Shown: positions 15,933 through 60,581, numbered from the stretch's first letter. The stretch: DNA of 64,000 nucleotides from Patescibacteria group bacterium (GCA_026004595.1 BPJL01000007.1:12460-76459); one strand, 5' to 3'. Notes: generated from the sequence alone by a model not told the origin. Made by a program: numbers and translations.

Positions 15933-15939
15933 CTTTTAA

Positions 15940-34047: not shown

Positions 34048-34668
34048 ATGTTTAAGGTAAAAGTTTTAAAAAAGAGTGCTATAGACACTTCAATTCTAAA
34101 GAAAAGAAAGGTACACTTTACCTCCAGTGATATAAAGCCGTTCGCCGACCAAAAGCTTGAGTGGAAAAACGAGGAACTGCCTGATGAACTAAAGAAGCTT
34201 TGCGAACAGGTTAAGTTAATTTTCTCTTTACAGGACGAGGTAAAGGGCTATAACGTACGTTTCATTCCCCCATCAAGGACTGTTAACAGGGGTAAGACTG
34301 TAATCATAGAAAAGGCCACCGGAATGACTGTTTGCTCTAGGGTTGTCATAACACTTGGCTCAATGGAGTCAATTGGTTTAAGGCTAGAGAACGAGGAAGC
34401 GGAAGTTGTAATTCCTTCTAACTCGGGCTTTCAAATTCCACTGTTTATGGTAGCAGCGTTTGATATAAAAGTTGATGACAAAGACAGCTTTAAAATAAAA
34501 ATCGGTTCTAAAGAGAAAACAGTTGCAAAAAGACCAAACAGACGCTACATAATGGTGATAGACTTTCTAACCAACGACACAACTCTTAACAACGTTTTAA
34601 CAAAGTCTGGTTTATCGGAAAATACAATCAAGGCAATTAGAAGAAACCTTTTTGACAAAGGCAAATGA
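34048..34668 (+). CDS. Hypothetical protein (206 aa)
   Basis: ORF. Its last ~110 nt are duplicated at 36770-36880 upstream of the second BspA-like gene. Confidence 0.6.
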   Translation: MFKVKVLKKSAIDTSILKKRKVHFTSSDIKPFADQKLEWKNEELPDELKKLCEQVKLIFSLQDEVKGYNVRFIPPSRTVNRGKTVIIEKATGMTVCSRVVITLGSMESIGLRLENEEAEVVIPSNSGFQIPLFMVAAFDIKVDDKDSFKIKIGSKEKTVAKRPNRRYIMVIDFLTNDTTLNNVLTKSGLSENTIKAIRRNLFDKGK

Positions 34669-34699
34669 TTGTTTTTTTAAAAAAAAGACAAGCCAAAAA

Positions 34700-36742
34700 A
34701 TGGATAAAATAAAACTACCAAAAGACAGCACAGGGTACTTTAGTGGTAAAAGAATAACAAACGAGTTAATTAAAAAATATGACGCTTCCCAAGTTGAGAT
34801 AATGAACGACATTTTCAAAGATGCAACGTTCGAAGACGTTGACTTAAACTCTTGGGACGTATCAAGGGTTAAGTCGATGAAGGGTGCTTTTATGAACAGT
34901 TTGGGAACCGTAAACATCTCACAGTGGAACGTGTCAAAGGTAAGGGACATGAGTCACATGTTTAAAAACTCGTCTTTTAATGGCGACATTTCAAATTGGG
35001 ACGTGTCAAACGTGAGAAACATGAGCTTTATGTTCTGTAAAACAAAGTTTAACAGCGATATATCACATTGGAATGTTTCAAACGTTAGGTTTATGATTGG
35101 CATGTTCACTGAGTCGGAATTCAACGGCGACATATCACGTTGGAATGTTTCAAACGTGATAAGCATGAGACAAATGTTCACTATGTCAAAGTTTAACGGA
35201 GACATATCACGTTGGAACGTTTCAAACGTGAAAAACATGTCGTCCATGTTCGCCCGTTCACAGTTTAACAGGGACATATCAGATTGGAACGTTTCAAAGG
35301 TAAGGGATATGAGCTACATGTTTTATCAATCACGTTTCAACGGAGACGTTTCAAATTGGAATGTTTCGAACGTGAGAAACATGATTCGCATGTTCTGTAG
35401 GTCTGATTTTAACAGTAACATTTCAAATTGGGACGTGTCAAACGTGAGAAACATGAGCAGTTTGTTTGAATCAACAAAGTTTAATGGAGACATATCAAAA
35501 TGGAACGTGTCGAAAGTGAGAAACATGAGTCGCATGTTCTGTAGGTCTGATTTTAACAGGGACATTTCAAATTGGAACGTGTCAAACGTGAGGAACATGA
35601 TCGATTTGTTTGGAGGATCAAAGTTTAATGGAGACATATCACGGTGGGACGTGTCAAACGTGATAGACATGAGCTTTATGTTCTGTAAATCAAAGTTCGA
35701 TGGAGACATTTCAAATTGGAACGTGTCAAACGTGATAGACATGAGATATATGTTTTATGAATCAAAGTTCGATGGAGACATTTCAAATTGGAACGTGTCG
35801 AACGTGAGAAACATGAGCTGTATGTTTTATGGATCAAAGTTCGATGGAGACATATCAAAATGGAACGTGTCGAACGTAAGGGACATGAGTCGCATGTTCT
35901 GTAGGTCTGTTTTTAACAGGGACATTTCAAATTGGGACGTGTCAAACGTGAGGTACATGAGATTTATGTTTGATAACTCGTCTTTTAATGGCGACATATC
36001 ACGGTGGGACGTGTCGAACGTGAGAGACATGAGCTTTATGTTTTACGGATCAAAGTTCGATGGAGACATTTCAAATTGGAACGTGTCGAACGTGAGAAAC
36101 ATGAGCTGTATGTTTTATAAATCAAAGTTCGATGGAGACATTTCAAATTGGAACGTGTCGAAAGTGAAGGACATGAGTAGCATGTTCTGTAGGTCTGTTT
36201 TTAACAGGGACATTTCAAATTGGGACGTGTCAAACGTGAGGGACATGAGTCACATGTTTGATAACTCGTCTTTTAATGGCGACATATCACGGTGGGACGT
36301 GTCGAACGTGAGAGACATGAGCTTTATGTTTTACGGATCAAAGTTCGATGGAGACATTTCAAATTGGAACGTGTCAAACGTATGGGGTATGAGTCACATG
36401 TTTTATGAATCAAAGTTCGATGGAGACATTTCAAATTGGAACGTGTCAAACGTGATAGACATGAGCCATATGTTTCATGAATCAAAGTTCGATGGAGACA
36501 TTTCAAATTGGAACGTGTCGAACGTAAGGGATATGAGTCACATGTTTGCTCTTTCGAGGTTCGACGATGACATATCCAAATGGGACGTTTCAAACGTCGA
36601 AGACATGAGCTATATGTTCTTTCAATCAAAGTTCAACGGCGATATATCACGGTGGAACGTTTCAAACGTGAAAAACATGACCAACATGTTCCTTCTTTCG
36701 GATTTCAACGGCCACTTTTCACCTAGAATATCTCAAACGTGA
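34700..36742 (+). CDS. BspA-like / DUF285 ('Mycoplasma-type') leucine-rich-repeat protein, ~26 tandem 24-aa repeats
   Basis: Repeating 'FNGDISNWNVSNVRNMSHMFxxSx' units (72-nt period). ATG 'MDKIKLPKDSTGYFSGKRI' at 34700. The track start at 34652 is a TTG. Confidence 0.8.
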   Translation: MDKIKLPKDSTGYFSGKRITNELIKKYDASQVEIMNDIFKDATFEDVDLNSWDVSRVKSMKGAFMNSLGTVNISQWNVSKVRDMSHMFKNSSFNGDISNWDVSNVRNMSFMFCKTKFNSDISHWNVSNVRFMIGMFTESEFNGDISRWNVSNVISMRQMFTMSKFNGDISRWNVSNVKNMSSMFARSQFNRDISDWNVSKVRDMSYMFYQSRFNGDVSNWNVSNVRNMIRMFCRSDFNSNISNWDVSNVRNMSSLFESTKFNGDISKWNVSKVRNMSRMFCRSDFNRDISNWNVSNVRNMIDLFGGSKFNGDISRWDVSNVIDMSFMFCKSKFDGDISNWNVSNVIDMRYMFYESKFDGDISNWNVSNVRNMSCMFYGSKFDGDISKWNVSNVRDMSRMFCRSVFNRDISNWDVSNVRYMRFMFDNSSFNGDISRWDVSNVRDMSFMFYGSKFDGDISNWNVSNVRNMSCMFYKSKFDGDISNWNVSKVKDMSSMFCRSVFNRDISNWDVSNVRDMSHMFDNSSFNGDISRWDVSNVRDMSFMFYGSKFDGDISNWNVSNVWGMSHMFYESKFDGDISNWNVSNVIDMSHMFHESKFDGDISNWNVSNVRDMSHMFALSRFDDDISKWDVSNVEDMSYMFFQSKFNGDISRWNVSNVKNMTNMFLLSDFNGHFSPRISQT

Positions 36743-36880: not shown

Positions 36881-36912
36881 GATTGTTTTTAAAAAAAAGA
36901 CAAGCCAAAAAA

Positions 36913-39801
36913 ATGGATAAAATAAAACTACCAAAAGACAGTACAGGGTACTTTAGTGGTAAAAGAATAACAAACGAGTTAATTGAAAAATATGACGCTT
37001 CCCAAGTTGAGATAATGGACGACATTTTCAAAGATGCAACGTTTTCGAACGTTGACTTAAACTCGTGGGACGTATCAAGGGTTAAGTCAATGAAGGGTGC
37101 TTTTATGAACAGTTTGGGAACCGTAAACATCTCACAGTGGAACGTGTCAAACGTGAGGGACATGAGTCACATGTTTGAAAACTCGTCTTTTAATGGCGAC
37201 ATATCACAGTGGGACGTGTCAAACGTGAGAAACATGAGCTTTATGTTCTGTAAATCAAAGTTTAACAGCGATATATCACATTGGAATGTTTCAAACGTTA
37301 GGTTTATGATTGGCGTGTTCACTGAGTCGGTATTCACAGGCGACATATCCAACTGGGACGTTTCAAACGTCGAAGACATGAGACAGATGTTTGCTGAATC
37401 AAAGTTTAACGGGGACATATCACGCTGGAACGTTTCAAACGTGAAAAACATGTCGTCCATGTTCTGTAGGTCTGTTTTTAACAGGGACATATCAGATTGG
37501 AACGTTTCAAACGTAAGGGATATGAGCTACATGTTTTATATATCAAGTTTCAACGGAGACATTTCAAATTGGAATGTTTCGAACGTGAGAAACATGAGCT
37601 ATATGTTCCATGGATCAAAGTTTGAAGGAAACATATCACGATGGGACGTTTCAAATGTAAAAGATATGAGCGGTTTGTTTGAAGGAGCAAAGTTTAATGG
37701 AGACATATCAAAATGGAACGTGTCGAAAGTGAGGGACATGAGTCGCATGTTCTGTGGGTCTGTTTTTAACAGGAACATTTCAAATTGGAACGTGTCAAAC
37801 GTGAGGGACATGAGTCACATGTTTGATAACTCGTCTTTTAATGGAGACATATCACGGTGGGACGTGTCGAACGTGAGAGACATGAGCTTTATGTTTTACG
37901 GATCAAAGTTCGATGGAGACATTTCAAATTGGAACGTGTCAAACGTGATAGACATGAGATATATGTTTTATGAATCAAAGTTCGATGGAGACATTTCAAA
38001 TTGGAACGTGTCGAACGTAGGGGATATGAGTCACATGTTTGCTCTTTCGAGGTTCAACGGTGACATATCCAACTGGGACGTTTCAAACGTCGAAGACATG
38101 ATCTATATGTTCTATCAATCAAAGTTCAACGGCGATATATCACGGTGGAACGTTTCAAACGTGAAAAACATGTCGTCCATGTTCGCCCATTCACAGTTTA
38201 ACAGGGACATATCAGATTGGAACGTTTCAAACGTAAGGGATATGAGCTACATGTTTTATGAATCAAGTTTCAACGGAGACATTTCAAATTGGAATGTTTC
38301 TAACGTGAGAAACATGAGCCATATGTTCCATGGATCAAAGTTTGAAGGAAACATATCACGATGGGACGTGTCGAAAGTGATGGACATGAGTCGCATGTTC
38401 TGTTGGTCCGTTTTTAACAGGAACATTTCAAATTGGAACGTGTCAAACGTGAGGAACATGAGTCACATGTTTTATAACTCGTCTTTTAATGGCGACATAT
38501 CACGGTGGGACGTGTCAAACGTGAGAAACATGAGCTATATGTTCTGTGAATCAAAGTTCGATGGAGACATTTCAAATTGGAACGTGTCAAACGTGAGAGA
38601 CATGAGCTTTATGTTCTGTAAATCAAAGTTCGATGGCGACATATCACGGTGGGACGTGTCAAACGTGATAGACATGAGCCATATGTTTCATGAATCAGAG
38701 TTCGATGGAGACATTTCAAATTGGAACGTGTCAAACGTGATAGACATGAGCCATATGTTTCATGAATCAAAGTTCGATGGAGACATTTCAAATTGGAACG
38801 TGTCGAACGTAAGGGATATGAGTCACATGTTTGCTCTTTCGAGGTTCAACGGTGACATATCCAACTGGGACGTTTCAAACGTGACAAACATGAGACAAAT
38901 GTTCAATATGTCAAAGTTTAACGGGGACATATCACGCTGGAACGTTTCAAACGTGAAAAACATGTCGTCCATGTTCACTAAATCACAGTTTAACAGGGAC
39001 ATATCAGATTGGAATGTTTCAAACGTAAGGGATATGAGCTACATGTTTTATGAATCAAGTTTCAACGGAGACATTTCAAATTGGAATGTTTCGAACGTGA
39101 GAAACATGAGCCATATGTTCCATGGATCAAAGTTTAATGGAGACATATCACGATGGAACGTGTCGAAAGTGAGGGACATGAGTCACATGTTCTGTAGGTC
39201 TGTTTTTAACAGGGACATTTCAAATTGGAACGTGTCAAACGTGAGGGACATGAGTCACATGTTTGATAACTCGTCTTTTAATGGAGACATATCACGGTGG
39301 GACGTGTCAAACGTGAGAGACATGAACTATATGTTTTATGAATCAGAGTTCGATGGAGACATTTCAAATTGGAACGTGTCAAACGTGAGGGACATGATCT
39401 GTATGTTCTGTAGATCTGTTTTTAACAGGGACATTTCAAATTGGGACGTGTCAAACGTGAGGGTCATGAGTAACATGTTTGATAACTCGTCTTTTAATGG
39501 CGACATATCACGGTGGGACGTGTCAAACGTGAGAAACATGAGCTATATGTTCTGTGAATCAAAGTTCGATGGAGACATTTCAAATTGGAACGTGTCAAAC
39601 GTGAGGGACATGAGCTTTATGTTTGCTCTTTCGAGGTTCGACGATGACATATCCAACTGGGACGTTTCAAACGTCAAAGACATGAGCTATATGTTCTATC
39701 AATCAAAGTTCAACGGCGATATATCACGGTGGAACACTTCAAAAGTCGAAGACATGACCGACATGTTCCTTCTTTCGGATTTCAACGGCCTTTTCATCTA
39801 G
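36913..39801 (+). CDS. BspA-like / DUF285 repeat protein, paralog 2 (~38 tandem 24-aa repeats)
   Basis: The N-terminus 'MDKIKLPKDSTGYFSGKRITNELIEKYDASQVEIMDD' matches paralog 1 apart from isolated substitutions (K→E, N→D), followed by the same 72-nt repeat family. Confidence 0.8.
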   Translation: MDKIKLPKDSTGYFSGKRITNELIEKYDASQVEIMDDIFKDATFSNVDLNSWDVSRVKSMKGAFMNSLGTVNISQWNVSNVRDMSHMFENSSFNGDISQWDVSNVRNMSFMFCKSKFNSDISHWNVSNVRFMIGVFTESVFTGDISNWDVSNVEDMRQMFAESKFNGDISRWNVSNVKNMSSMFCRSVFNRDISDWNVSNVRDMSYMFYISSFNGDISNWNVSNVRNMSYMFHGSKFEGNISRWDVSNVKDMSGLFEGAKFNGDISKWNVSKVRDMSRMFCGSVFNRNISNWNVSNVRDMSHMFDNSSFNGDISRWDVSNVRDMSFMFYGSKFDGDISNWNVSNVIDMRYMFYESKFDGDISNWNVSNVGDMSHMFALSRFNGDISNWDVSNVEDMIYMFYQSKFNGDISRWNVSNVKNMSSMFAHSQFNRDISDWNVSNVRDMSYMFYESSFNGDISNWNVSNVRNMSHMFHGSKFEGNISRWDVSKVMDMSRMFCWSVFNRNISNWNVSNVRNMSHMFYNSSFNGDISRWDVSNVRNMSYMFCESKFDGDISNWNVSNVRDMSFMFCKSKFDGDISRWDVSNVIDMSHMFHESEFDGDISNWNVSNVIDMSHMFHESKFDGDISNWNVSNVRDMSHMFALSRFNGDISNWDVSNVTNMRQMFNMSKFNGDISRWNVSNVKNMSSMFTKSQFNRDISDWNVSNVRDMSYMFYESSFNGDISNWNVSNVRNMSHMFHGSKFNGDISRWNVSKVRDMSHMFCRSVFNRDISNWNVSNVRDMSHMFDNSSFNGDISRWDVSNVRDMNYMFYESEFDGDISNWNVSNVRDMICMFCRSVFNRDISNWDVSNVRVMSNMFDNSSFNGDISRWDVSNVRNMSYMFCESKFDGDISNWNVSNVRDMSFMFALSRFDDDISNWDVSNVKDMSYMFYQSKFNGDISRWNTSKVEDMTDMFLLSDFNGLFI

Positions 39802-39903
39802 AATATCTCAAACGTGAAGGCTTGGATCAGGTTGAAACTATGCAAAAAATCACGATTAAACGGCTTTACTAGTGAATACAAAACAATCCGCGTGTTTGTA
39901 AAA

Positions 39904-40140
39904 TGGTTAAAAAACCGGTTGAAAAGCTTCCAAAGGACTCTACTGGGTTCTTTATTAACAAAATTATAACTAAAAGTCTGATAAAAAAGTACGATGCTTC
40001 TCGGACCAAATTTTGTCGAAGAGGTTGACTTAACATTAGGGATATGTTAAGTCATTAAGAGGAGCCTTTTTCGAAGCAAGGGGTAAGACACCCGATGGGT
40101 TGCACCAAGATTGAGAAAAGCTGCTTAGATGTTTAACATG
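39904..40140 (+). pseudogene. Decayed remnant of a third BspA-like gene copy (N-terminal fragment, stop/frameshift)
   Basis: It translates 'MVKKPVEKLPKDSTGFFINKIITKSLIKKYDASRTKFCRRG*', homologous to 'MDKIKLPKDSTGYFSGKRITNELIKKYDASQVEI'. A following out-of-frame 'EVDLTLG' matches 'DVDLNSWD'. Confidence 0.6.
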
Positions 40141-40167: not shown

Positions 40168-41733
40168 TCAAGACTGTTTAACTGGGAATACTAGTGTTTT
40201 ATCGAATATAACCTCGTCGTGTGTTATCATTATCACGGTTGCATCAATGTCCTTTATTAGTCTTATAACCTTTTCTTTTGTTAGTTTGTCAAGCGATGAC
40301 GTCGGTTCATCAAGGATAAGAACTTTCATATCAGGGTTTAACACGGAATGAAGTATATGGATAAGCTGTTTCTGTCCTCCTGATAGTTCGTCAACGTTGG
40401 GTTCGTATTGTTTATCCAAAGGCACCAATTCGCCCAAGTCATATCTTTTTATTATCTCTTCTACCTTTTGTCTAAGGTTATCACCCTTTATCCCGAAGGT
40501 GATTATTTCGTATACGGTCTTTGAGAGAAGTACTCCGGGATTCTGTTTGGCTATGCTAACGGCAACGTTAATTGATTCCCTGTCCAACTCGTTCACGTTC
40601 TCTCCTCCCAAAAATATGTTTCCCGAAACGGGTTTAAGTTTTCCCCTAATAAGGTTGATAAAGGTAGACTTGCCTGATCCAACGTGACCGACTATGTTCA
40701 CCTTTTCCTTATCAGCTATGTAAGTACTATAGTTGTTAAAGATGATTTTATCACCGTAGCTAAAGGTAACATTAGAAAACAGTATTGAACCGTTTTTTAT
40801 GTCGACTTTTTTCTTTTCCTCTTTTTTGAAAAGTTCCTGTAAAAACTGTCTGTTGCTTTTTAGAATAGAAAACACCCTCAAAATTTTCGGTGTATAATAA
40901 CCCATGTCATAGAAAAAATTATACAGTCTTCCTATCACTACTATGTTTTTACCAAAACTATCCTGATCTATCTCTTTTTTTCTTAAAAGCCTTAGCATAT
41001 ACAATACTGTGAAGGCATAAAATAGTACTCCGGTTGAAATTCCAAGGCTTTGCTTTTTTCCATCGTTGTTCACTATTTTTAGTATTGAATCGCGGAAGTC
41101 TATTGTTACTTTGTCTACCTCTTCTTTTATTAGATCAACACCGTTGCGTGTTGATGTGATAAAATCAATGTTCTGAATTATGTTATCCACTGCTTTTAAC
41201 ATCACGTCTTTGTGTATTTCTAAGTTGTCATCTTTACTATTGATAAAATAGAGTATAATGGCAAAGATAACAAGGGAAGTGATAGTTTGTACCCAAATTT
41301 TATAGTTAAATTTAAATACTCGTATAAAAGCTACTACTGAAACAGCTATAAGAGGTATCATCTTAATAAAAACATAATAGAAAGCACTGTTTACCGAACT
41401 TGAAATCATCACGGCTTTGTCTATCGCTTCTGTCGGCGTGAAATCAACCATCTCTTTTTCAACTATTCTTTTTGCTATCTCTCTTAGAGTATGATTATAA
41501 AGCAGTGGTTCTATCTTGTTTCCAAAGTAGTTAGATGAAATATAAAACAGTTTTTGTATGACAACAACCGTCAGAAACTTTCTAACCGTTTTTTTGTTTA
41601 CGTTCTTTATCATGTCAACGAGATAGTTTGGTATAATCACGATATCAATAATGTTGGATATCGATGATAGAATCACGGTGCCATAGATAATGGTTTTATT
41701 TTGATTAACAAAGTCCAAAATAAGACTGTTCAT
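40168..41733 (-). CDS. ABC transporter, half-transporter type (N-terminal 5-6 TM permease domain fused to ATP-binding cassette)
   Basis: Walker A 'GHVGSGKST', Q-loop 'IAKQNP', ABC signature 'LSGGQKQL', Walker B 'VLILDEPTSSLD', H-loop 'MITHDE'. Hydrophobic N-terminal ~300 aa. Confidence 0.8.
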   Translation of the reverse strand: MNSLILDFVNQNKTIIYGTVILSSISNIIDIVIIPNYLVDMIKNVNKKTVRKFLTVVVIQKLFYISSNYFGNKIEPLLYNHTLREIAKRIVEKEMVDFTPTEAIDKAVMISSSVNSAFYYVFIKMIPLIAVSVVAFIRVFKFNYKIWVQTITSLVIFAIILYFINSKDDNLEIHKDVMLKAVDNIIQNIDFITSTRNGVDLIKEEVDKVTIDFRDSILKIVNNDGKKQSLGISTGVLFYAFTVLYMLRLLRKKEIDQDSFGKNIVVIGRLYNFFYDMGYYTPKILRVFSILKSNRQFLQELFKKEEKKKVDIKNGSILFSNVTFSYGDKIIFNNYSTYIADKEKVNIVGHVGSGKSTFINLIRGKLKPVSGNIFLGGENVNELDRESINVAVSIAKQNPGVLLSKTVYEIITFGIKGDNLRQKVEEIIKRYDLGELVPLDKQYEPNVDELSGGQKQLIHILHSVLNPDMKVLILDEPTSSLDKLTKEKVIRLIKDIDATVIMITHDEVIFDKTLVFPVKQS

Positions 41734-42398
41734 TTATTTATGGATACATTTGCATTAGGGTTTTTAGAACCACCTTTCTTGAACATTGGAACAATGATAA
41801 CAAGTAGAACAACAACAGCGATGATGACGGCTATCAAAGCAACCCCCGCCGCGAGTAGACTCACGTAAGTAGAACTTTGTGATGCTTTGTTGGAAATCGA
41901 CGAACTGGCAGCAGCTTTAGCTGTATTAACACTATTACAGGTTATATTTGATACTTCACCCTGTTGTCCTAAATCAAGGTCACCGTTATGGTTTACCAGT
42001 ATATAAGTATTGTTATCTTTTATGTTTTCTGATTCATTTTTGCAAGTTGCTGCCAAAAGCTGTGTGATTTTGTTTACTATTTTGGTATTTAGAAAAGTAA
42101 TTTGTTCAGCAGCGTTAACATCAAGACTTAGCCCAGAAAACACTTTTGAGTACTGTGTAGCAGTGTTATTTATTATGTCAGCTATGCTCGTTTGAAAAGA
42201 TGATTTAAAAAGACATGATGCATCATTTATGGTACAGCTCTGTGTTGCGTCCACGTTACCTGAGCCACCGATTATTATAACGGTGTTTCCATCCATTATG
42301 TTTCTGCAGGACATTTCACAGTACTGAACAGTTGCTTGAAGAATCTCAGTCATTGCAGAGTTTTCAATAAGTTGAGCCTGAACAAGAGCAAATCCCAT
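41730..42398 (-). CDS. Putative myristoylated, C-terminally anchored membrane protein (poxvirus L1/F9-like architecture)
   Basis: N-terminal 'MG', scattered conserved Cys, Thr/Ser/Asn-rich body, C-terminal TM 'LLAAGVALIAVIIAVVVLLVIIVPMF'. Assigned by architecture only. Confidence 0.35.
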   Translation of the reverse strand: MGFALVQAQLIENSAMTEILQATVQYCEMSCRNIMDGNTVIIIGGSGNVDATQSCTINDASCLFKSSFQTSIADIINNTATQYSKVFSGLSLDVNAAEQITFLNTKIVNKITQLLAATCKNESENIKDNNTYILVNHNGDLDLGQQGEVSNITCNSVNTAKAAASSSISNKASQSSTYVSLLAAGVALIAVIIAVVVLLVIIVPMFKKGGSKNPNANVSINK

Positions 42399-42415
42399 TT
42401 ACAATGAACTAAAAT

Positions 42416-43042
42416 TTAATCAAGATTGTATTCATCTTTAAGTTTCATTAGTTCCCTAACAAGTGCTTCGTTGTTTTTGATGTACTCTTCTATCAACTCT
42501 TCTAGACTGTGCTTTTCATAGACAAACTTAAACAGAATACCAAGAAGTGGAGAAGAAGCATTAAATATATTTCTTGCAGTGTAGTTGTTGACGATATCTA
42601 TGCTGGTAAAGCTGCTGGGAAAAAGCATTGATAAAATGTTCCACAGTTTAAGGTAAACTTTAGCAACGTGAGGGTGTATATAGAAACCCTTTTCGAATAT
42701 CTTGATCACGACCTGTTCTCTTGTTGTTAGGTTTATGGCGTTTCCGTTTTCATCAATGATGTAGTAGTGATTATCACCATAGACAACTATTCCTCCCGGT
42801 GAATAGGAGCTAACAGAGGCATACGGGTTTAAGATTGATATAGCCTTGATTAAAAAGCTGGCAGTGTTGATAACGTCTTTTACCATCGATTGTTTAAGCG
42901 AGGGATACAGCTTTTCTCCGTCAGTAAAGCAGTCCTTGCCGATGTACTCTTTTGGCATTGTTATTGACTTGTACTCTTTGCCAACTCTGTAGTATCCATA
43001 GAAGTTACCTTTAGTGTACTCAACATAATCAATCTTGTACAT
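42416..43042 (-). CDS. Hypothetical protein (208 aa)
   Basis: ORF, no motif. Confidence 0.55.
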   Translation of the reverse strand: MYKIDYVEYTKGNFYGYYRVGKEYKSITMPKEYIGKDCFTDGEKLYPSLKQSMVKDVINTASFLIKAISILNPYASVSSYSPGGIVVYGDNHYYIIDENGNAINLTTREQVVIKIFEKGFYIHPHVAKVYLKLWNILSMLFPSSFTSIDIVNNYTARNIFNASSPLLGILFKFVYEKHSLEELIEEYIKNNEALVRELMKLKDEYNLD

Positions 43043-43051
43043 TTTAATTGA

Positions 43052-44341
43052 TTATATAACTATTTTATGGCCGTTTATTTCACTTATTGATATGTCTGGT
43101 TTTTCGTAGCCCAACCGAGGAGGGTAACTGTATCTAACACAGCTAAAGGGGTTCCAACGGGTTGTCCTGTATTCAATGTAATCACTGATGCTTTGCTTGT
43201 TTAGCTCAAAGTCAAACTCCACATTGTTTATATCAACCAGTTTAACATTTTTCACCTCTTCAAATACACAACTGTTAAGCTGTACGTTGTTCAGTCTTAG
43301 AACAGTTCCGTTAGACTTTAAAGCAAAAGTTGAATCGCCGTTATCAACTATGCTAATGTTAGTTTTGTTGTTAAGCATGTCTTCAACGTTTAAATTCTTC
43401 CAGACAATTGTGTCTTTGTCGGCTAGAAGAACACCGATTCTACCTCTTGAAAAAATGCCATAAAGACCCTCAACAAAAACGATGCTGTCACAGTGACCAG
43501 TACCTTTGTTTGTTAAGTTTTCTGTTGGTAAATCAAAGGTTAAATAACCCGAGTCAATCTTTATAATAAAGAACTTAATATCATCTCTGATGTAAAGGCC
43601 ATACTCAATACACTTTACTTTACCGTTGTCGTTGTATAGTGTTTTATCACGAATCGCCTCAGATATGTCAGTCGTTATTCCCTTTGTAGAACAGGCTTTT
43701 CCGCTGCACTCCATGTCAACAAAGTAGTACCCCACTTGAAAGTTCTCTGTTACTCTAGTGTGATCAACTAGACTGTAAAGCTCTGACCTGATGTTGTAGG
43801 GGGAAAAGTTTGTGTCACAGTCCCCAACCCATTCACCGCACTCTGGAAGGTCAGGTATACAGTCTGTTTCAACTGTTATTTTAACTCCCTCCTGGCAGTA
43901 GTAGACGCCGTTCGCAGGAAAACAGCCTTCGTGATAAGTGTCAAATATGCAACCGTTGTTGCCAACAAGGTCCTTTTTCACGCAGAACATTTCCCTAGTC
44001 ATCCTTCCCAGTTCGTATGGTCTAACACACACGTCATCGAACTTGCACTCTGAGAATGGAGAAGTCTTCCAAACGGTTCTTTGGCACCTTGGCAAACAGG
44101 ACACAATTTCGATTTTGTCTTTCATAAACCTTTGGTTGCCAAGAACACACCCATGCTTCTCTCTGCAAATATAGCCTATTTTCTTTTTGGAGTTTACATC
44201 AGTGCATGACTCGCCCTTACACTCGGTTTCAATTATGCTAATGTTATTTGAACCAGAAAAAAGTTCAAATCGGTAATAAAAAATCAGAAACACGGTTACA
44301 GTAATAGCAATTGCTAACGTGGTTAATTGAGTCTGAAACAT
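43052..44341 (-). CDS. Type II membrane protein with large Cys-rich ectodomain (429 aa)
   Basis: 'LTTLAIAITVTVFLIFYY' anchor. More than 20 Cys in the remainder. Confidence 0.6.
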   Translation of the reverse strand: MFQTQLTTLAIAITVTVFLIFYYRFELFSGSNNISIIETECKGESCTDVNSKKKIGYICREKHGCVLGNQRFMKDKIEIVSCLPRCQRTVWKTSPFSECKFDDVCVRPYELGRMTREMFCVKKDLVGNNGCIFDTYHEGCFPANGVYYCQEGVKITVETDCIPDLPECGEWVGDCDTNFSPYNIRSELYSLVDHTRVTENFQVGYYFVDMECSGKACSTKGITTDISEAIRDKTLYNDNGKVKCIEYGLYIRDDIKFFIIKIDSGYLTFDLPTENLTNKGTGHCDSIVFVEGLYGIFSRGRIGVLLADKDTIVWKNLNVEDMLNNKTNISIVDNGDSTFALKSNGTVLRLNNVQLNSCVFEEVKNVKLVDINNVEFDFELNKQSISDYIEYRTTRWNPFSCVRYSYPPRLGYEKPDISISEINGHKIVI

Positions 44342-45531: not shown

Positions 45532-47370
45532 GTGATTAAAAGTAGCTTCTTAAAAATGGAAACCAACATAAGAGAAGAATTAGAGAAACTTATACCAGAA
45601 ATCAGGTCCCCGATAAAAGAGATATCAGACCTGGCTAGAGAACAGATAATCGACAAACTAGCAATAATACTAAGTGATAACATTATGGACGATAAGTTAA
45701 AAAGACTTATCGTTACCTCTTTTTACAGGAGCAGAGCTGAGCCCGGTCATCATGTGGGAATAGAGGCATCAGAAGGTCTAGCCGGTCCAATGACACAGAT
45801 GACGCTATCCGGTTTTCATCAAGCCGGTTCCGCTGCTAACATTAGCTCCGGCATAGAAGCCCTAAAAGAGATACTTAACATCACCAAGAAAAGAAAGGCA
45901 GAAAGGACAACAATACACTTTAAAAACAGATACCTTTTACCCAACGAGATACTTGATCTAAAAAAAGAAATAGTAGGAGTGACAGTGAAAGACCTATTGA
46001 TTCAGTCGCCGAGAGACTTTTTGAACAAAGAAGAGGACAGTTGGTATGAAGCATTCAAAAGAATATTTTCAATAGAGTCCTTACCTCCAATATCAACACG
46101 GCTAAGACTAAACAGAAACAAGCTATTCGAATACGAGATAACAACGTATGAAATAATAGAAAAGATAAAGAAACAGTTTAAGGAGATAATTGCAATACCA
46201 TCTCCAATATCAGGTGAAAGTATCTATATTGACGTTTTTCCAACTGCTGAAGTTGTAAACAAGCACAGCAAAAAGCTTTCATCGGCGGGTAACCTGGAGG
46301 ATAAAATGCAACTCTTTCTTACTCAGGTGTTTAAACCGTCACTTGAGACAATAGTTATAAAGGGAATACCCGGAATAAGTGAAATCTTTCCAGAAACGGT
46401 AAGGGTTACCAAGATGATAAAAAACGTCTCAAGAAAAAACGACTGGTACATCTGGCTTGATAACATCAAGATGTTATACGGTGGGATCGATCGGGAAAGG
46501 GTTGCCGAGGTGATAGAAGCATCGGGAATAGAGATCGTAGAAACAATAAAAAGCGAGAAAATATGGATACCAATGGGCTTTAGGGTAAAGGCAGATGAAA
46601 ACCCATTAGAACTAATAAACAGAAGACTCAACGAGGAAGAGGAAAAACTAAGAGAAACGGGTGTGTCGTCTGACCTGTATAGAAAGGGAAATTACAGTTT
46701 TGTTTATGCTAACGGAAGTAACTTAAGAAAAGTTTTAACACACCCTTTAATAGACCCAAGAATTTCCATATGCAATAACATACTCGAAATAAACTCAGTA
46801 ATTGGTATACAGGCTGTTAACAACTTTATAATAAAAGACGTTTATGAGACAATAACCAACTCTTCGTCTTACTGTTCACCAAAACACATAGTACTTCTTG
46901 CAAACTTTATGACTGCGATAGGGTTGGTGCCGGTAACGTCAAGTGGTGTTTCAAAACACAACAGAGGTGCTTTCACCGATGCAACGTTTGAGCAGACAGT
47001 AGAGGCCTTTTTCAACGCAGCCTTAATAGGAAGATGGGAAGAAACAAGTGCAACATCAACGTCACTTTTCATAGGAGAGAGGGGAAGGTATGGAACGGGA
47101 ATATGCGAAGTTGAATTTGATGAAGAGGGAATGAAGGCGTTAGTCGGAGAAGAGAAAGAAACGGAAACCTTTAAAGAAGAGGTTACCGGAGCACAGATAA
47201 ACCCAGTCATTTTGGAGGAAAACGAAAACGACTATATATCAGAGAAGGTGATGCTTGAAACAAGCAAAGCAATGCTATTGGAACAACAGTCAGATGATGA
47301 GTCAGAAGACGTAGAAGAGATAGTAGACGAGAAGGTCATGAAACTAATCCAGGAACTTGCAAACGGCTAA
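45532..47370 (+). CDS. RPB1: RNA polymerase largest subunit, C-terminal portion (A''-like: trigger loop/domains G-H) with acidic tail
   Basis: 'AEPGHHVGIEASEGLAGPMTQMTLSGFHQAGSA' matches the conserved RPB1 trigger-loop region (…GEP.TQMTLNTFH.AGV…). Also 'GVSKHNRGAFTDATFEQTVE…'. There is no NADFDGD in this gene. Confidence 0.75.
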   Translation: MIKSSFLKMETNIREELEKLIPEIRSPIKEISDLAREQIIDKLAIILSDNIMDDKLKRLIVTSFYRSRAEPGHHVGIEASEGLAGPMTQMTLSGFHQAGSAANISSGIEALKEILNITKKRKAERTTIHFKNRYLLPNEILDLKKEIVGVTVKDLLIQSPRDFLNKEEDSWYEAFKRIFSIESLPPISTRLRLNRNKLFEYEITTYEIIEKIKKQFKEIIAIPSPISGESIYIDVFPTAEVVNKHSKKLSSAGNLEDKMQLFLTQVFKPSLETIVIKGIPGISEIFPETVRVTKMIKNVSRKNDWYIWLDNIKMLYGGIDRERVAEVIEASGIEIVETIKSEKIWIPMGFRVKADENPLELINRRLNEEEEKLRETGVSSDLYRKGNYSFVYANGSNLRKVLTHPLIDPRISICNNILEINSVIGIQAVNNFIIKDVYETITNSSSYCSPKHIVLLANFMTAIGLVPVTSSGVSKHNRGAFTDATFEQTVEAFFNAALIGRWEETSATSTSLFIGERGRYGTGICEVEFDEEGMKALVGEEKETETFKEEVTGAQINPVILEENENDYISEKVMLETSKAMLLEQQSDDESEDVEEIVDEKVMKLIQELANG

Positions 47371-52421: not shown

Positions 52422-54845
52422 ATGACTTCACAATATGAGAAACTGTTCATCAATATCCCCCAGGGTAAAATTAGATATTCCATTGTTAATCTTCCTGTAC
52501 CAAAAAGACTGATGGTTGCCAAGGCTGAAAAGAAAAACAGAATAGAACACTATGACCCGTCTAGTGGGACGGTTGATAGTCTGGTCTTTGGGACTACGGT
52601 CGATGAGTTCGACTGTGATACCTGTAAACTAAACAGGCTATGGTGCCCGGGACACCTTGGTTACATAGACCTTTCAAAGTTCCCGGTTATAAACCCAAAA
52701 CTTAGAAAAAAGTTGGCCAAAATACTTAACTGTTTCTGTGTTGAAACCGGCGAACCAAAGTTTGATACCAACCGCTACAACCTGTTTTTGCATCTAAAGT
52801 TTCTTAACGAAAAGTATAAGGGTGCTAAGTGTCACGAGGGCCACGAAAGAGTCATTTTTGTTGTTACCAAACAGAATAGAAAGAACGTTATTTTTAAATA
52901 TGTTGGAAAAAACACTGAAAAGGTTTCAGTTTCACCAATGGAAATCATAAAGTACCTTGATAGAATAGACAGCAGATACAAAATCAAGCCGTTGAACAGG
53001 GCTCTTGTTATAAAGAGATTACCAGTTATTCCTCCTTGTGTTCGCTACTACGGTGTCTTTAACGGTGATAAAAAAATTGCTCATCCAATAACAAGACATT
53101 ACAACGGAATACTCCAGAGAATAGAAAGGCTAAAGTCAAGTCGTGTTGACAGGGAATCAAACGCAAGAAATGACATATTTTCTCTTGTATCAGAGCTTTT
53201 TAACGAGATAGAGAATGAACTAAAAAACAAAAAGGGATACATAAGAGCATCAGTCATGGGTAAAAGGGTAAACTTTAGTGGCAGAACAGTGCTCGGTCCC
53301 TATAACAGGTTAGACTTTGGAATGATAATGATACCAAAGCTAATGAAGTACGTTCATACGATTCCAATAACGGTTACAACTTTTAATCAGAATGTTATGA
53401 GAGAGTTTCTCAGAAGAAGAATGGTAAAAACTGTTATTCTTGGTGACAGACAGGTGTTAAAGGGTGTTACAATAAAGCCCGATAGCAACTATACACCGTT
53501 ACCCGGAGACGTGCTTGAAATTTATGGTAGACAGGGAGACGAGGTGATTTTTAACCGTCAACCAACCCTTGATAAGCAGTCCATTATGGGTTATAGAGTA
53601 CAGTACCTTGATGACTACTACTGCTTTGGTCTTCACTCTTCTTACACTACACCTCATAACGCTGATTTTGACGGCGACGAGGGTAACCTGCATAAGATTC
53701 AAAACGTTGAAGCCCGTGCTGAAGTGAGACACATTGTTTCCGTTGAAAACTGTCTTATGAACCCAAAGACTAACCGTCCAGCTTTCGGACTAGTTTACAA
53801 CTGCATTTCAGCCGGTTATCTGATATCAGAAGCAGAAATTGATAAAAAGTGGTTTATAAGTTTAGCAGAAAAACTGGGGTTACTTGAGGATAAAAGACTA
53901 AATAGATGGTTAGAAGAGAAAAGAAAGTTAACCGGAAAGGAACTTTTCAGTCTCTGTTTACCAGACGACTTTAACTATAGCAACAGATCAGTAGTGATAA
54001 TAAACGGTGTTTTTACGTCTGGTAGACTAACCTCATCACACTTAGCCCCAACGGAACACTCAATTTTGCATCGTATCTATAAAACACGCGGAAAAAAAGA
54101 TGCTGTTAGGTTTCTTACCCTTGGGCAACGTATACTAGACGAGTTTCTTGGATACTATGGTCTTTCGATAGGCATTTCCAGTCTGGTGCCAAAGAAACTT
54201 AGTATAATCAAGAAGCTTGTTGAGAACGTGATTCAGAAAACCATATTTAATATAAAGGCTATACCAGAGGGGTCTATAAACAGAGAGAACAAAATCTGTA
54301 ACGCGCTTAACACAGTTACAAGAATAGGAATACAGATAAGCAAAAACGTACTTAAACCAGAAAACCCTCTTAACGTAATGTCACTCTCGGGCGCGAAGGG
54401 AAAAGAAGCAAACACTGCTCAAATAATTGGAAGTCTGGGTCAACAGTACATTTTTGGATCAAGACCGGAGAAGACGTTAACACTAAAAACAAGGTGCCTT
54501 CCGTACTTTGAACCGAACAGCCCTGATCACGACATAGAATCAAGGGGCTTTGTAAAAGAGTCGTTTATGGAAGGAGCTGACCCTCCAGGGTTTATCTTTC
54601 ACATGATGGCTTCAAGGGTTGGTCTTATCGACTCAGCGATAAAGACTGGAGACATTGGCTACTCTCACAGAAAGCTTGTTAAGTCGTTAGAAAACCTTGT
54701 GCTTGAATACGACGGAACAGTGAGGGATAACAGAGGTAACATTTTCAATTTCTCATATACAGACGGGTTCTACGCTGGAGAGCTGTTAACCGTTAGCAGC
54801 GCACAGTTAACAACACTCTGTTTTGTTTACCCGAAAGAATTTTGA
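52422..54845 (+). CDS. RPB1: RNA polymerase largest subunit, N-terminal portion (A'-like: clamp/zinc, active site, bridge helix), paralog 1
   Basis: Zinc motif 'CDTCKLNRLWCPGHLGYIDL', 'RASVMGKRVNFSGRTVLGPY', catalytic 'YTTPHNADFDGDEGNLH', bridge-helix region 'ESRGFVKESFMEGADPPGFIFHMMASRVGLIDSAIKTGDIGYSHRKLVKSLEN'. It ends just after the bridge helix. Confidence 0.85.
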   Translation: MTSQYEKLFINIPQGKIRYSIVNLPVPKRLMVAKAEKKNRIEHYDPSSGTVDSLVFGTTVDEFDCDTCKLNRLWCPGHLGYIDLSKFPVINPKLRKKLAKILNCFCVETGEPKFDTNRYNLFLHLKFLNEKYKGAKCHEGHERVIFVVTKQNRKNVIFKYVGKNTEKVSVSPMEIIKYLDRIDSRYKIKPLNRALVIKRLPVIPPCVRYYGVFNGDKKIAHPITRHYNGILQRIERLKSSRVDRESNARNDIFSLVSELFNEIENELKNKKGYIRASVMGKRVNFSGRTVLGPYNRLDFGMIMIPKLMKYVHTIPITVTTFNQNVMREFLRRRMVKTVILGDRQVLKGVTIKPDSNYTPLPGDVLEIYGRQGDEVIFNRQPTLDKQSIMGYRVQYLDDYYCFGLHSSYTTPHNADFDGDEGNLHKIQNVEARAEVRHIVSVENCLMNPKTNRPAFGLVYNCISAGYLISEAEIDKKWFISLAEKLGLLEDKRLNRWLEEKRKLTGKELFSLCLPDDFNYSNRSVVIINGVFTSGRLTSSHLAPTEHSILHRIYKTRGKKDAVRFLTLGQRILDEFLGYYGLSIGISSLVPKKLSIIKKLVENVIQKTIFNIKAIPEGSINRENKICNALNTVTRIGIQISKNVLKPENPLNVMSLSGAKGKEANTAQIIGSLGQQYIFGSRPEKTLTLKTRCLPYFEPNSPDHDIESRGFVKESFMEGADPPGFIFHMMASRVGLIDSAIKTGDIGYSHRKLVKSLENLVLEYDGTVRDNRGNIFNFSYTDGFYAGELLTVSSAQLTTLCFVYPKEF

Positions 54846-59774: not shown

Positions 59775-60581
59775 CTATTTTTTTAAACTATTAACTATTT
59801 TGTTATAATATTCCATCATCCTGTTTGGAACTGGGAGTTTTGTTTTAACGTTTTTACCGGGTAGCTGTTTGTCTAACTCTGAGAAAAGGTACAGAGCGAG
59901 TGCTGTGGTGTAGTGTGGATCACTTGGGTCAATAAAGTTTAAACCGGGAAGGTCGTTTACTATCATCCACTCGTAAGCATGCATTGTTCCCATTCCCTTT
60001 CTTCCCTTGTTACAGTTAGCACAGGAGATTCTTAGGTTTGAAACCTCATCCTTCCCGCCAAGGCAGTAGGGTACTATGTGAGCAACGTCACAGGAATCAA
60101 TATTTACCCTTTGAAGGCATGCGAAGCAAGACCTTGATTTGTGATCAGAAAGACTTCTGTTTCTCCACTGAAGTCCCTCTGTTCTATTTCCCTCTTCGCA
60201 CCATACTTCCATCTTTAGCTTTGGAGTTATCGGTGTCCTTTGCGTTTTTGATTCCTTAACCATGGGTAAGTTTTTAGTTATCTTTGATGAACTTGAGTTG
60301 GGAATACCGTTGAGTTCAACACACCTCAAAAAGGGAACAAAGTACTTAAGAAACTCTATCAGATATTTTTCATCATCGTACGTCAGCTTTATTTTTTCGT
60401 TAATACTATAAACCCCTCTACAGGGTTTACAGTTCCATCTTAAGGTTTCCAGTTTAAAGTACTTGTTTTCAACTGGAACAGATGCTGATATAAGACCGTC
60501 CCTGAATTTAACTTTGTCTTTCCAGAGATCAGTGTTAATAACTTCTGTGTTTCCTTCGTATATTTTTTTGGCTATGTCCAT
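59775..60581 (-). CDS. HNH endonuclease-domain protein
   Basis: 'CFACLQRVNIDSCDVAHIVPYCLGGKDEVSNLRISCANCNKGRKG', the HNH ββα-Me core (H…N…C-x2-C-N). Confidence 0.65.
   Translation of the reverse strand: MDIAKKIYEGNTEVINTDLWKDKVKFRDGLISASVPVENKYFKLETLRWNCKPCRGVYSINEKIKLTYDDEKYLIEFLKYFVPFLRCVELNGIPNSSSSKITKNLPMVKESKTQRTPITPKLKMEVWCEEGNRTEGLQWRNRSLSDHKSRSCFACLQRVNIDSCDVAHIVPYCLGGKDEVSNLRISCANCNKGRKGMGTMHAYEWMIVNDLPGLNFIDPSDPHYTTALALYLFSELDKQLPGKNVKTKLPVPNRMMEYYNKIVNSLKK

What the first reader, a model, noticed from the sequence alone, without database searches (positions are those of the whole stretch)
40168..41733. Complete ABC half-transporter (TMD-NBD fusion) encoded by a virus
All five NBD motifs are intact (GSGKST, Q-loop, LSGGQ, ILILDEPTSSLD, H-loop), following a ~300-aa polytopic domain. 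Transporters are rare in viral genomes. The gene lies beside the L1/F9-like and Cys-rich membrane proteins (41730..44341). It may belong to the virion or viral-factory membrane, or it may export or import a substrate during infection, for example peptides, lipids or metal.
Basis: partly seen in the sequence, partly recalled or inferred. Interest (0 to 1): 0.55.

Follow-up and report, generated by a model that had tools for sequence, protein, structure and literature searches.

The report
Giant-virus ABC exporter half-transporter gene
The gene is a real, intact ATP-driven membrane exporter carried by a giant-virus-like genome, but such ABC half-transporters are already known to be common in giant viruses, so this is a new, fairly divergent member of a known family whose cargo is unknown.

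Summary
ORF 40168..41733 (-) encodes a 521-aa protein: six long transmembrane helices followed by an ABC ATPase domain with every catalytic motif intact. The AlphaFold2 model (pLDDT 93.6) matches the type IV exporter fold over its full length (TmrAB, MsbA, TM287/288; TM about 0.8).

The gene looks native. Its GC, GC3 and codon usage match the window. It shares the window's TAAATG start context. Giant-virus (NCLDV)-type genes lie on both sides: topoisomerase II, split Rpb1, Rpb5, primase, Erv1/Alr, XRN, NUDIX. GenBank files the contig under a Patescibacteria MAG, which looks like mis-binning.

Full-length homologues (27-32% identity) occur in many giant-virus MAGs and NCLDV-like contigs. The best viral structural match is an annotated Marseillevirus LCMAC103 ABC transporter (TM 0.90). 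Prokaryotic genomes match only the ATPase domain.

The claim that transporters are rare in viruses is outdated. Greiner 2018 and Schulz 2020 report ABC transporters as widespread in giant viruses, and one was detected in AaV virions.

The most likely function is a homodimeric ATP-driven exporter or floppase in ER-derived viral or host membranes. The substrate is unknown. One oddity is a degenerate X-loop. The "L1/F9-like" neighbour could not be verified. Verdict: a new member of a known kind, of low to moderate interest.

The parts
40168..41733 (-). Complete ABC half-transporter gene (521 aa, ATG start, TGA stop)
   Evidence: ORF listing. Pfam ABC_tran E = 1.7e-24. Full-length homologues. AF2 model pLDDT 93.6. 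Foldseek match to type IV exporters.
40828..41733 (-). Transmembrane domain (aa 1-302): six long TM helices with two short coupling-helix turns. Carries the family-signature residues P35, P76, P127 and N188.
   Evidence: Hydropathy. DSSP on the AF2 model. Conservation in alignments. Coordinates checked.
40171..40785 (-). Nucleotide-binding domain (aa 317-521)
   Evidence: Pfam and NCBIfam matches. Coordinates checked.
40663..40689 (-). Walker A, GHVGSGKST
   Evidence: Translation. G349, G352, G354 and K355 are invariant in 72 sequences.
40543..40545 (-). Q-loop glutamine Q397
40372..40386 (-). ABC signature LSGGQ. The stretch just upstream (KQYEPNVDE) replaces the exporter X-loop.
40288..40323 (-). 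Walker B VLILDE with catalytic Glu476, followed by the D-loop SSLD
40219..40221 (-). H-loop histidine H505
41731..41736 (-). TAAATG start context. The ATG overlaps the TGA stop of the upstream gene (ATGA). This resembles the initiator used by about half the ORFs in the window.
   Evidence: Upstream sequences and statistics.
40026..40054 (.). Perfect 11-nt inverted repeat with a 7-nt loop, 114 nt downstream of the ABC stop. It is a candidate 3'-end hairpin. Assignment to the ABC transcript is an inference.
41730..42398 (-). Upstream co-directional neighbour (222 aa). It starts with Met-Gly, has six Cys and a C-terminal TM segment. The 'L1/F9-like' label is unverified.
   Evidence: Sequence. Negative searches. 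Poor model.

Best explanation
This is a native gene of a divergent giant virus (NCLDV type). The contig is deposited under a mis-binned Patescibacteria MAG. The gene encodes a half-size ABC exporter of the type IV (ABCB/MsbA-like) fold.

Shown:
- It has six TM helices plus one canonical ATPase domain.
- All catalytic motifs are intact.
- It belongs to a large, coherent family of 540-590-aa half-transporters. Every member whose genomic context I could inspect lies on a giant-virus MAG or an NCLDV-like contig.

Inferred:
- Two copies form a homodimer with two active ATP sites. All motifs are consensus and there is only one such gene in the window.
- ATP binding closes the NBD dimer and switches the TMDs from inward-facing to outward-facing. 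This moves an amphipathic substrate from the cytosol or cytosolic leaflet to the far side of the membrane.
- As a eukaryotic-virus membrane protein it would insert into the ER. The ER is the membrane source for NCLDV factories and the internal membrane of virions.

My preferred specific guess is a lipid or amphipathic-molecule floppase or exporter serving viral membrane biogenesis, possibly carried into virions. This guess has low confidence.

Approximate confidences:
- Identity and fold: 0.95.
- Native viral gene: 0.9.
- Active ATP-driven transporter: 0.7.
- Specific substrate and location: 0.25.
For: - Motifs and ORF.
- Fold: AF2 pLDDT 93.6, pTM 0.85. Foldseek PDB gives TmrAB 6rai_B at TM 0.81, plus MsbA, TM287/288, PCAT1 and ComA, all over about 540 aligned columns.
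- Family: full-length homologues at 27-32% identity in GVMAGs. A profile search returned 150 best hits that are nearly all 520-600-aa full-length proteins. The NJ tree puts the window protein in a 13-member subclade with proteins from a 234-kb contig carrying an ASFV-C962R-type primase, Rpb5, PARP_regulatory, RNR and TK, and from a 256-kb contig. Further contexts are NCLDV-like.
- Family-specific residues are shared: P76, P127 and N188.
- Native status: GC 0.342, GC3 0.368 and codon divergence 0.032, against window means of 0.376, 0.393 and 0.045. The TAAATG start context is shared with the window's genes. NCLDV-type genes lie on both sides.
- Prokaryotic species genomes match only the NBD, residues about 317-512, with E >= 6e-23. 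GVMAGs reach 2e-54 over residues 4-507.
- There is only one NBD in the window.
- Literature precedent: PMC6163359, PMC7162819, and virion detection of AaV_306 in PMC7507832.
Against: - Pfam ABC_membrane does not hit the TMD. All NCBIfam subfamily scores are far below their cut-offs, so no substrate class can be assigned.
- The X-loop couples NBDs to the intracellular loops in exporters. Here it is replaced by YEPNV, and 4-5 residues are missing relative to close relatives. Coupling could be altered.
- No conserved gene neighbourhood hints at a pathway.
- No capsid, PolB or packaging ATPase gene was recognised within the window, so the viral assignment rests on other hallmark genes.
- The tree is an unbootstrapped NJ tree of profile-selected, mostly unlabelled metagenomic proteins. 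Some clade members could be cellular.
- The homodimer, the membrane location and the substrate are all untested.
Confidence: 0.7

Rival explanations
1. It is a multidrug-type efflux pump that ends up in the host plasma membrane or a vacuole. There it expels toxic metabolites, host defence compounds or xenobiotics to keep the infected cell productive.
For: The fold is the same as MDR-type exporters (ABCB1, TM287/288, EfrCD, Sav1866-like). JGI annotates relatives as 'ABC-type multidrug transport system fused ATPase/permease'. Relatives' contigs carry other transporters, CRCB and a Na/H exchanger, which suggests virocell membrane remodelling.
Against: No signal distinguishes this from a lipid or peptide substrate. 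The family is old and virus-associated rather than recently captured from a host MDR gene. There are no targeting data.
Confidence: 0.2
2. It is a peptide exporter of the TAP, TmrAB or PCAT kind. It would move peptides into the ER or factory lumen, or secrete a viral peptide.
For: Top structural matches include TmrAB, PCAT1, ComA, HlyB and TAP. NCBIfam's longest alignment is to a peptidase-domain ABC transporter model, and some relatives are labelled 'bacteriocin/lantibiotic exporter'.
Against: There is no C39 peptidase or N-terminal accessory domain, because the protein starts directly at TM1. The scores are far below every family cut-off. The structural matches are equally good to the lipid exporter MsbA. 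No cargo gene lies nearby.
Confidence: 0.1
3. It is a decaying or repurposed copy. With the X-loop lost, ATP hydrolysis is uncoupled from transport, and the protein acts as a structural or regulatory membrane ATPase or is on its way to loss.
For: The X-loop VGKxG is present in most family members (129/150 G, 107/150 K, 139/150 G) but absent here. The protein is the shortest in its clade, 521 aa against 540-590.
Against: Every catalytic residue and the TMD signature residues are retained. The ORF is intact and the model is confidently folded. P0021 and P0267 also have reduced X-loops, which suggests the change is tolerated.
Confidence: 0.1
4. It is a contaminant or chimera: a bacterial (Patescibacteria) or host gene mis-assembled into, or binned with, viral sequence.
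For: GenBank assigns the contig to a Patescibacteria group MAG.
Against: The gene overlaps its upstream neighbour by 4 nt and shares the window's start-context signature and codon usage. Eukaryote/NCLDV-type genes lie on both sides: topo II with TOPRIM_C, Rpb1, Rpb5, XRN and Erv1. The closest full-length relatives are on giant-virus contigs. Prokaryotic genomes match only the NBD.
Confidence: 0.03

Closest known systems
ABC transporters annotated in giant viruses (Marseillevirus LCMAC103 A0A481YV66, Pyramimonas orientalis virus, Indivirus, Terrestrivirus, Tupanvirus, Catovirus, Moumouvirus; the 452-605-aa proteins catalogued by Greiner et al. 2018; the ABC transporters of GVMAGs in Schulz et al. 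2020; AaV_306)
   Same: It has the same TMD-NBD half-transporter architecture and size class. The BFVD structural match reaches TM 0.90 over 554 columns. Full-length sequence homology to GVMAG proteins is 27-30%. The family-signature residues P76, P127 and N188 are shared. No function has been demonstrated for any member (PMC6163359).
   Different: Identity to any relative found is only about 18-32%. It is the shortest member at 521 aa. It lacks the family's VGKxG X-loop. It comes from a divergent lineage whose Rpb1 is at most 37% identical to IMG/VR giant-virus sequences.
Type IV (formerly type I) ABC exporters of cells: bacterial MsbA, TmrAB, TM287/288, Sav1866-like ABCB half-transporters; eukaryotic ABCB family
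   Same: It has six TM helices extending into the cytoplasm, two coupling helices and a C-terminal NBD with all motifs. TM-scores are 0.73-0.83. A PDB profile search gives ABCB1, ABCB4 and Atm3 as the best sequence matches.
   Different: Sequence identity in the structural alignments is 14-20%. Pfam ABC_membrane is not detected. The TMD is about 20-50 residues shorter, with very short external loops. The X-loop TEVGERG is absent. The residues P76, P127 and N188 are not found in the bacterial ABCB sequences compared.
Entomopoxvirus full-length ABC transporters (AMV130, ACV025)
   Same: They are virus-encoded ABC transporters.
   Different: Those are 1384-1506-aa ABCA-like TMD-NBD-TMD-NBD proteins recently taken from insects (PMC6163359). 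The structural match to AMV130 is poor, TM 0.33.

Membership tests
ABC ATPase superfamily (Pfam PF00005) | Walker A, Q-loop, LSGGQ signature, Walker B with catalytic Glu, D-loop and H-loop, in order | tested here: met
   ABC_tran E = 1.7e-24, 87 bits against a cut-off of 25. Motifs read at the coordinates given. They are invariant across 72 relatives.
Type IV ABC exporter (ABCB/MsbA-like half-transporter) | N-terminal TMD of six long helices with intracellular extensions and coupling helices, fused to a C-terminal NBD | tested here: met
   AF2 model pLDDT 93.6 with six helices of 31-54 residues. Foldseek gives full-length matches to TmrAB, MsbA, TM287/288, PCAT1 and Atm1 at TM 0.65-0.83.
Type IV ABC exporter (ABCB/MsbA-like half-transporter) | Sequence match to Pfam ABC_membrane (PF00664) | tested here: not met
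   No hit at E<=10. Relatives carry only faint to unmarked PF00664 hits. The TMD is recognised only through full-length alignments and by fold.
Type IV ABC exporter (ABCB/MsbA-like half-transporter) | X-loop (TEVGERG-like) immediately before the signature motif | tested here: not met
   The window has KQYEPNVDE-LSGGQ. Bacterial ABCB sequences have VGERG, and most family members have VGKxG.
Type IV ABC exporter (ABCB/MsbA-like half-transporter) | Functional dimer (homo- or heterodimer) with two composite ATP sites | not testable with these tools
   Only monomer prediction is available. There is a single NBD gene in the 64-kb window and all motifs are consensus, which suggests a homodimer by inference.
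Giant-virus-associated ABC half-transporter family | Full-length homology to proteins encoded on giant-virus genomes or MAGs, closer than to cellular ABCB proteins | tested here: met
   GVMAG matches cover residues 4-507 with E down to 2e-54. Prokaryotic genome matches are NBD-only with E >= 6e-23. In the NJ tree the protein clusters with proteins from NCLDV-like contigs. The BFVD best hit has TM 0.90. Caveats: the tree has no bootstrap support, and eukaryotic host genomes were not searched systematically.
Giant-virus-associated ABC half-transporter family | Family-signature residues (P76 in TM2, P127 in TM3, N188 at coupling helix 2, X-loop VGKxG) | tested here: inconclusive
   P76, P127 and N188 are present. 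The X-loop VGKxG is absent.
Named functional subfamilies (MsbA, CydDC, TAP, PCAT/bacteriocin exporters, type I secretion, PglK) | Score above the curated NCBIfam cut-off. For PCAT, also an N-terminal C39 peptidase domain. | tested here: not met
   The best scores are 82-111 bits against cut-offs of 254-1000. There is no N-terminal extra domain.
NCLDV (Nucleocytoviricota) genome context | Hallmark genes on the same contig | tested here: inconclusive
   Present: eukaryote-type topo II, split Rpb1 (three genes), Rpb5, Erv1/Alr, NUDIX, XRN, a DEAD helicase and a primase homologous to an AEP_C962R protein. Rpb1 relatives are found in hundreds of GVMAGs. Not recognised in the window: major capsid protein, PolB, A32 ATPase and VLTF3. 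About 15 kb of the 79-kb contig lies outside the window.
Poxvirus L1/F9 family (claimed for neighbour 41730..42398) | Match to Pfam L1R_F9L or to the L1/F9 structures | tested here: not met
   No Pfam hit at E<=10. No PDB sequence hit at E<=10. No IMG/VR relative. The AF2 single-sequence model has pLDDT 53.6 and is unusable. Only generic features fit: a Met-Gly start, six Cys and a C-terminal TM segment.

The most novel reading that the evidence does not exclude
These half-transporters may form an ancient, virus-specific ABC lineage rather than repeated host captures. The lineage would be marked by P76, P127, N188 and a Lys-containing X-loop. Its conserved job would be to build or equip the internal membrane of giant-virus particles, for example as a lipid floppase acting on ER-derived membrane sheets and packaged into virions. 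The X-loop-less version here would be a mechanistic variant of NBD-TMD coupling.
Probability: 0.15. Interest if true: 0.6.

Novelty: new member of a known kind. Interest (0 to 1): 0.25.

Why it matters
Giant-virus ABC transporters are frequent in genomes, but none has a known substrate, location or phenotype. This example adds a divergent lineage to the family. It also defines family-specific residues that could guide mutagenesis, and it offers a natural X-loop-deficient variant. In practical terms, it flags a giant-virus contig deposited as a Patescibacteria MAG, which matters for database hygiene. It does not change any concept on its own.

Tried and rejected
- Conserved synteny. I ran blastp of all ORFs from 17 related loci against the window ORFs. 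No neighbour of the ABC gene is shared, so there is no operon-like clue.
- The L1/F9 identity of the neighbour. Pfam at E<=10, PDB phmmer, an IMG/VR scan and single-sequence AF2 were all negative or unusable. I ran no further search on the poor model.
- Looking for a capsid or other hallmark among the large unannotated ORFs by PDB sequence search gave no hits.
- An IMG/VR scan with the primase-like protein alone found no relative. An Rpb1 alignment was needed instead.
- Naming the virus lineage from named homologues failed. The best Rpb1 and ABC relatives are unnamed metagenomic proteins.
- A structure search against AFDB50 for cellular donors was not possible because the library was unavailable.
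- A second half-transporter partner in the window was not found.
- The bacterial contamination idea was rejected on composition, start context, gene overlap, neighbours and homologue distribution.

Full report
**1. The observation**

The minus-strand ORF 40168..41733 is real. It runs for 521 codons from ATG to TGA.

Pfam finds the ABC ATPase domain at residues 333-479 with E = 1.7e-24. NCBIfam models of ABC exporters align to it but score far below their family cut-offs. The NBD-only alignments are the strongest, and two models span most of the protein: MsbA over residues 69-489 and a peptidase-ABC model over 19-506.

- Walker A GHVGSGKST
- Q-loop Q397
- signature LSGGQ
- Walker B VLILDE with the catalytic glutamate
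- D-loop SSLD
- H-loop H505

In an alignment of 72 relatives these residues are invariant.

**2. The N-terminal domain**

Hydropathy shows the paired hydrophobic segments typical of ABC exporters.

An AlphaFold2 model built on a 72-sequence alignment is confident, with mean pLDDT 93.6 and pTM 0.85. It shows six long helices at 13-43, 47-93, 100-142, 144-187, 198-251 and 257-293. Short turns sit at the positions of the two coupling helices and the external loops are very short. The NBD follows.

Foldseek against the PDB aligns the full chain (about 540 columns) to type IV exporters at TM-scores of 0.73-0.83 and 14-20% identity. The hits include TmrAB, Pseudomonas and E. coli MsbA, TM287/288, PCAT1, ComA, Atm1, HlyB and TAP. 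A profile search of PDB sequences gives ABCB1, ABCB4 and Atm3 as the best sequence relatives.

There are two departures from the textbook exporter:
- Pfam ABC_membrane does not detect the TMD even at E<=10.
- The X-loop that precedes LSGGQ is degenerate. It is VGERG in bacterial ABCB proteins and VGKxG in most members of this family. Here it reads YEPNV, with 4-5 residues missing relative to the closest relatives.

**3. Is the gene viral?**

The identical protein is in GenBank as KatS3mg101_0834 of a 'Patescibacteria group bacterium' MAG, on a 79,304-bp contig. The gene content of the window is not bacterial. It includes:
- a eukaryote-type topoisomerase II with TOPRIM_C
- three Rpb1 genes (two N-terminal paralogues and one C-terminal part)
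- Rpb5
- an XRN exonuclease
- a NUDIX hydrolase
- an Erv1/Alr thiol oxidase
- a metacaspase
- a transglutaminase
- a DEAD helicase
- an 870-aa protein homologous to an ASFV-C962R-type primase
- DUF285 repeat proteins

Rpb1 has relatives in hundreds of IMG/VR giant-virus contigs, at no more than 37% identity. No capsid, PolB or A32 gene was recognised in the window. The assignment is therefore 'NCLDV-type, divergent lineage' rather than a named family.

The ABC gene itself looks native:
- Its GC is 0.342, GC3 0.368 and codon-usage divergence 0.032. The means over 38 window ORFs are 0.376, 0.393 and 0.045, so it lies within the spread.
- Its ATG overlaps the stop codon of the upstream gene (ATGA).
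- It carries the exact TAAATG start context. Across the window, 23 of 30 ATG-started ORFs have AAATG, against 9.9% of all ATGs. Fifteen of 30 have TAAA(0-2A)ATG, against 3.2%.

**4. Relatives**

The closest full-length proteins are 27-32% identical.

An IMG/VR scan found full-length homologues covering residues 4-507, with E down to 2e-54, in several giant-virus MAGs.

A profile search of 1.84 billion representatives returned 150 best hits. Nearly all are 520-600-aa proteins matched end to end.

In a neighbour-joining tree of 157 sequences, rooted on named bacterial ABCB proteins, the window protein falls in a 13-member subclade. That subclade includes proteins from two large contigs:
- a 234-kb contig with an AEP_C962R primase, Rpb5, PARP_regulatory, ribonucleotide reductase and thymidine kinase
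- a 256-kb contig with RING-finger proteins and a metacaspase

The next larger clades hold the GVMAG proteins. Every other context I inspected is also NCLDV-like: poly(A) polymerase catalytic subunit, Erv1/Alr, PP2C and kinase, and many ORFans.

A scan of one genome per prokaryotic species matched only the NBD (residues about 317-512, E >= 6e-23).

Compared with bacterial ABCB sequences, the family has its own conserved residues: P76 in TM2, P127 in TM3, N188 next to coupling helix 2, and Lys in place of Glu in the X-loop. The window protein keeps the first three.

Caveats: the tree has no support values, the sequence set was chosen by profile score, and eukaryotic host genomes were not searched specifically.

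**5. What is known**

Greiner et al. [quoted passage not shown] They noted high diversity, no clear origin and no functional data (PMC6163359).

Schulz et al. 2020 found ABC transporters among the most commonly observed accessory functions in 2,074 giant-virus MAGs (PMC7162819).

ChrysoHV is reported to encode seven ABC transporters and PelV-1 one.

An MdlB-type ABC transporter, AaV_306, was detected in purified AaV particles in one of three replicates (PMC7507832).

BFVD contains annotated giant-virus ABC transporters with the same fold. The best is from Marseillevirus LCMAC103 at TM 0.90.

The statement that transporters are rare in viral genomes is therefore outdated for giant viruses.

**6. 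Mechanism**

Shown: an intact half-transporter of the type IV exporter fold with a catalytically complete NBD.

Inferred from the established mechanism of this fold (my own knowledge of MsbA, Sav1866 and TmrAB):
- Two copies dimerise. A homodimer is likely, because all motifs are consensus and the window holds no second NBD.
- ATP closes the NBD sandwich.
- The TMDs switch from inward-facing to outward-facing and release a substrate taken from the cytosol or the inner leaflet.

As a polytopic protein of a eukaryotic virus it would insert in the ER, the source of NCLDV factory and virion membranes (my own knowledge).

No substrate signal was found. Subfamily models fail, there is no accessory domain, and there is no conserved neighbour. 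I favour a lipid or amphipathic floppase or exporter linked to viral membrane biogenesis, at about 0.25. The rivals are MDR-like detoxification (0.2), peptide export (0.1) and an uncoupled or decaying copy given the lost X-loop (0.1). Contamination is at about 0.03.

**7. The neighbourhood claim**

The ABC gene is the last of four tightly packed co-directional genes running from 44341 to 40168.

The 222-aa product of 41730..42398 starts with Met-Gly, has six cysteines and has a C-terminal TM segment. The 429-aa product of 43052..44341 has an N-terminal TM segment and a Cys-rich body.

An L1/F9 relationship could not be shown. Pfam, PDB and IMG/VR searches were negative, and the single-sequence model was poor. 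The adjacency is not conserved in relatives. It therefore offers weak support, at best, for a shared virion-membrane role. The shared TAAATG initiator of the ABC gene and the 222-aa gene is suggestive of co-regulation, but it is unproven.

**8. Verdict**

The gene is a new and rather divergent member of a known kind, the giant-virus ABC half-transporters. Interest is about 0.25.

The most novel reading not excluded is an ancient virus-specific ABC lineage acting in virion membrane biogenesis, with this protein as an X-loop-less variant. I put its probability at about 0.15 and its interest if true at 0.6.

Noticed in passing
whole window (protein ids KatS3mg101_0834 and KatS3mg101_0845): The contig is deposited in GenBank as part of a 'Patescibacteria group bacterium' MAG. 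One Rpb1 gene is annotated as archaeal-style 'subunit A''. The gene content is giant-virus-like (topo II, Rpb1/Rpb5, XRN, Erv1, C962R-type primase), so this is probably a mis-binned giant-virus contig.
   Followed up: partly
window 45532-47370 (+), 52422-54845 (+), 55109-57496 (+): RNA polymerase Rpb1 is split inside domain 5. Two paralogous N-terminal genes (44% identical, both ending at about position 63 of Pfam Rpb1_5) lie in tandem. A single C-terminal gene starts at about position 67 of the same domain and lies 5-8 kb upstream. The best relatives (47-51% identical, 920-970 aa) seem to share the split.
   Followed up: partly
window-wide, ORF starts (for example 41731-41736, 42396-42401, 15935-15942): Start codons sit in a strongly enriched A-rich initiator. 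AAATG occurs at 23 of 30 ATG-started ORFs (background 9.9%, p about 1e-17), TAAA(0-2A)ATG at 15 of 30, and exact TAAATG at 6 of 30. This is reminiscent of poxvirus late and intermediate promoter initiators.
   Followed up: partly
window 34652-36742 (+), 36883-39801 (+), 39903-40025 (+): Two very large tandem DUF285 (BspA-like repeat) genes (14 and 18 Pfam repeat matches) share near-identical upstream regions. They are followed by a 41-aa ORF that reproduces only the N-terminus of these proteins, apparently a truncated third paralogue. A homologue (40-47% identity) lies on the NCLDV-like contig L071.
   Followed up: partly
window 40026-40054: A perfect 11-nt inverted repeat with a 7-nt loop lies in the convergent intergenic region. 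It starts at the stop of the 41-aa ORF and sits 114 nt beyond the ABC stop. It is a possible transcript 3'-end hairpin.
   Followed up: no
window 10150-10596 (+): A small Erv1/Alr-family thiol oxidase (E = 4.7e-8). It would provide the disulfide-forming activity expected for Cys-rich viral membrane proteins such as those at 41730-44341. An Erv1/Alr gene also lies 3 kb from the ABC homologue in L073.
   Followed up: partly
window 59775-60581 (-): An HNH endonuclease gene lies next to the XRN and Rpb1 genes. It may be a mobile homing-type element.
   Followed up: no
L001/L002 (ENA ERZ27247967 contig, 124.8 kb): The giant-virus-like contig that carries the ABC homologue P0002 also encodes a CRCB fluoride-channel-domain protein (646 aa) and a Na+/H+ exchanger, 5-9 kb from the ABC gene. 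This is a cluster of transport genes.
   Followed up: no
window 5568-6308 (+), 13462-14883 (+): A metacaspase (Peptidase_C14) gene and a transglutaminase-core gene are present. A metacaspase also occurs near the ABC homologue in L070.
   Followed up: no
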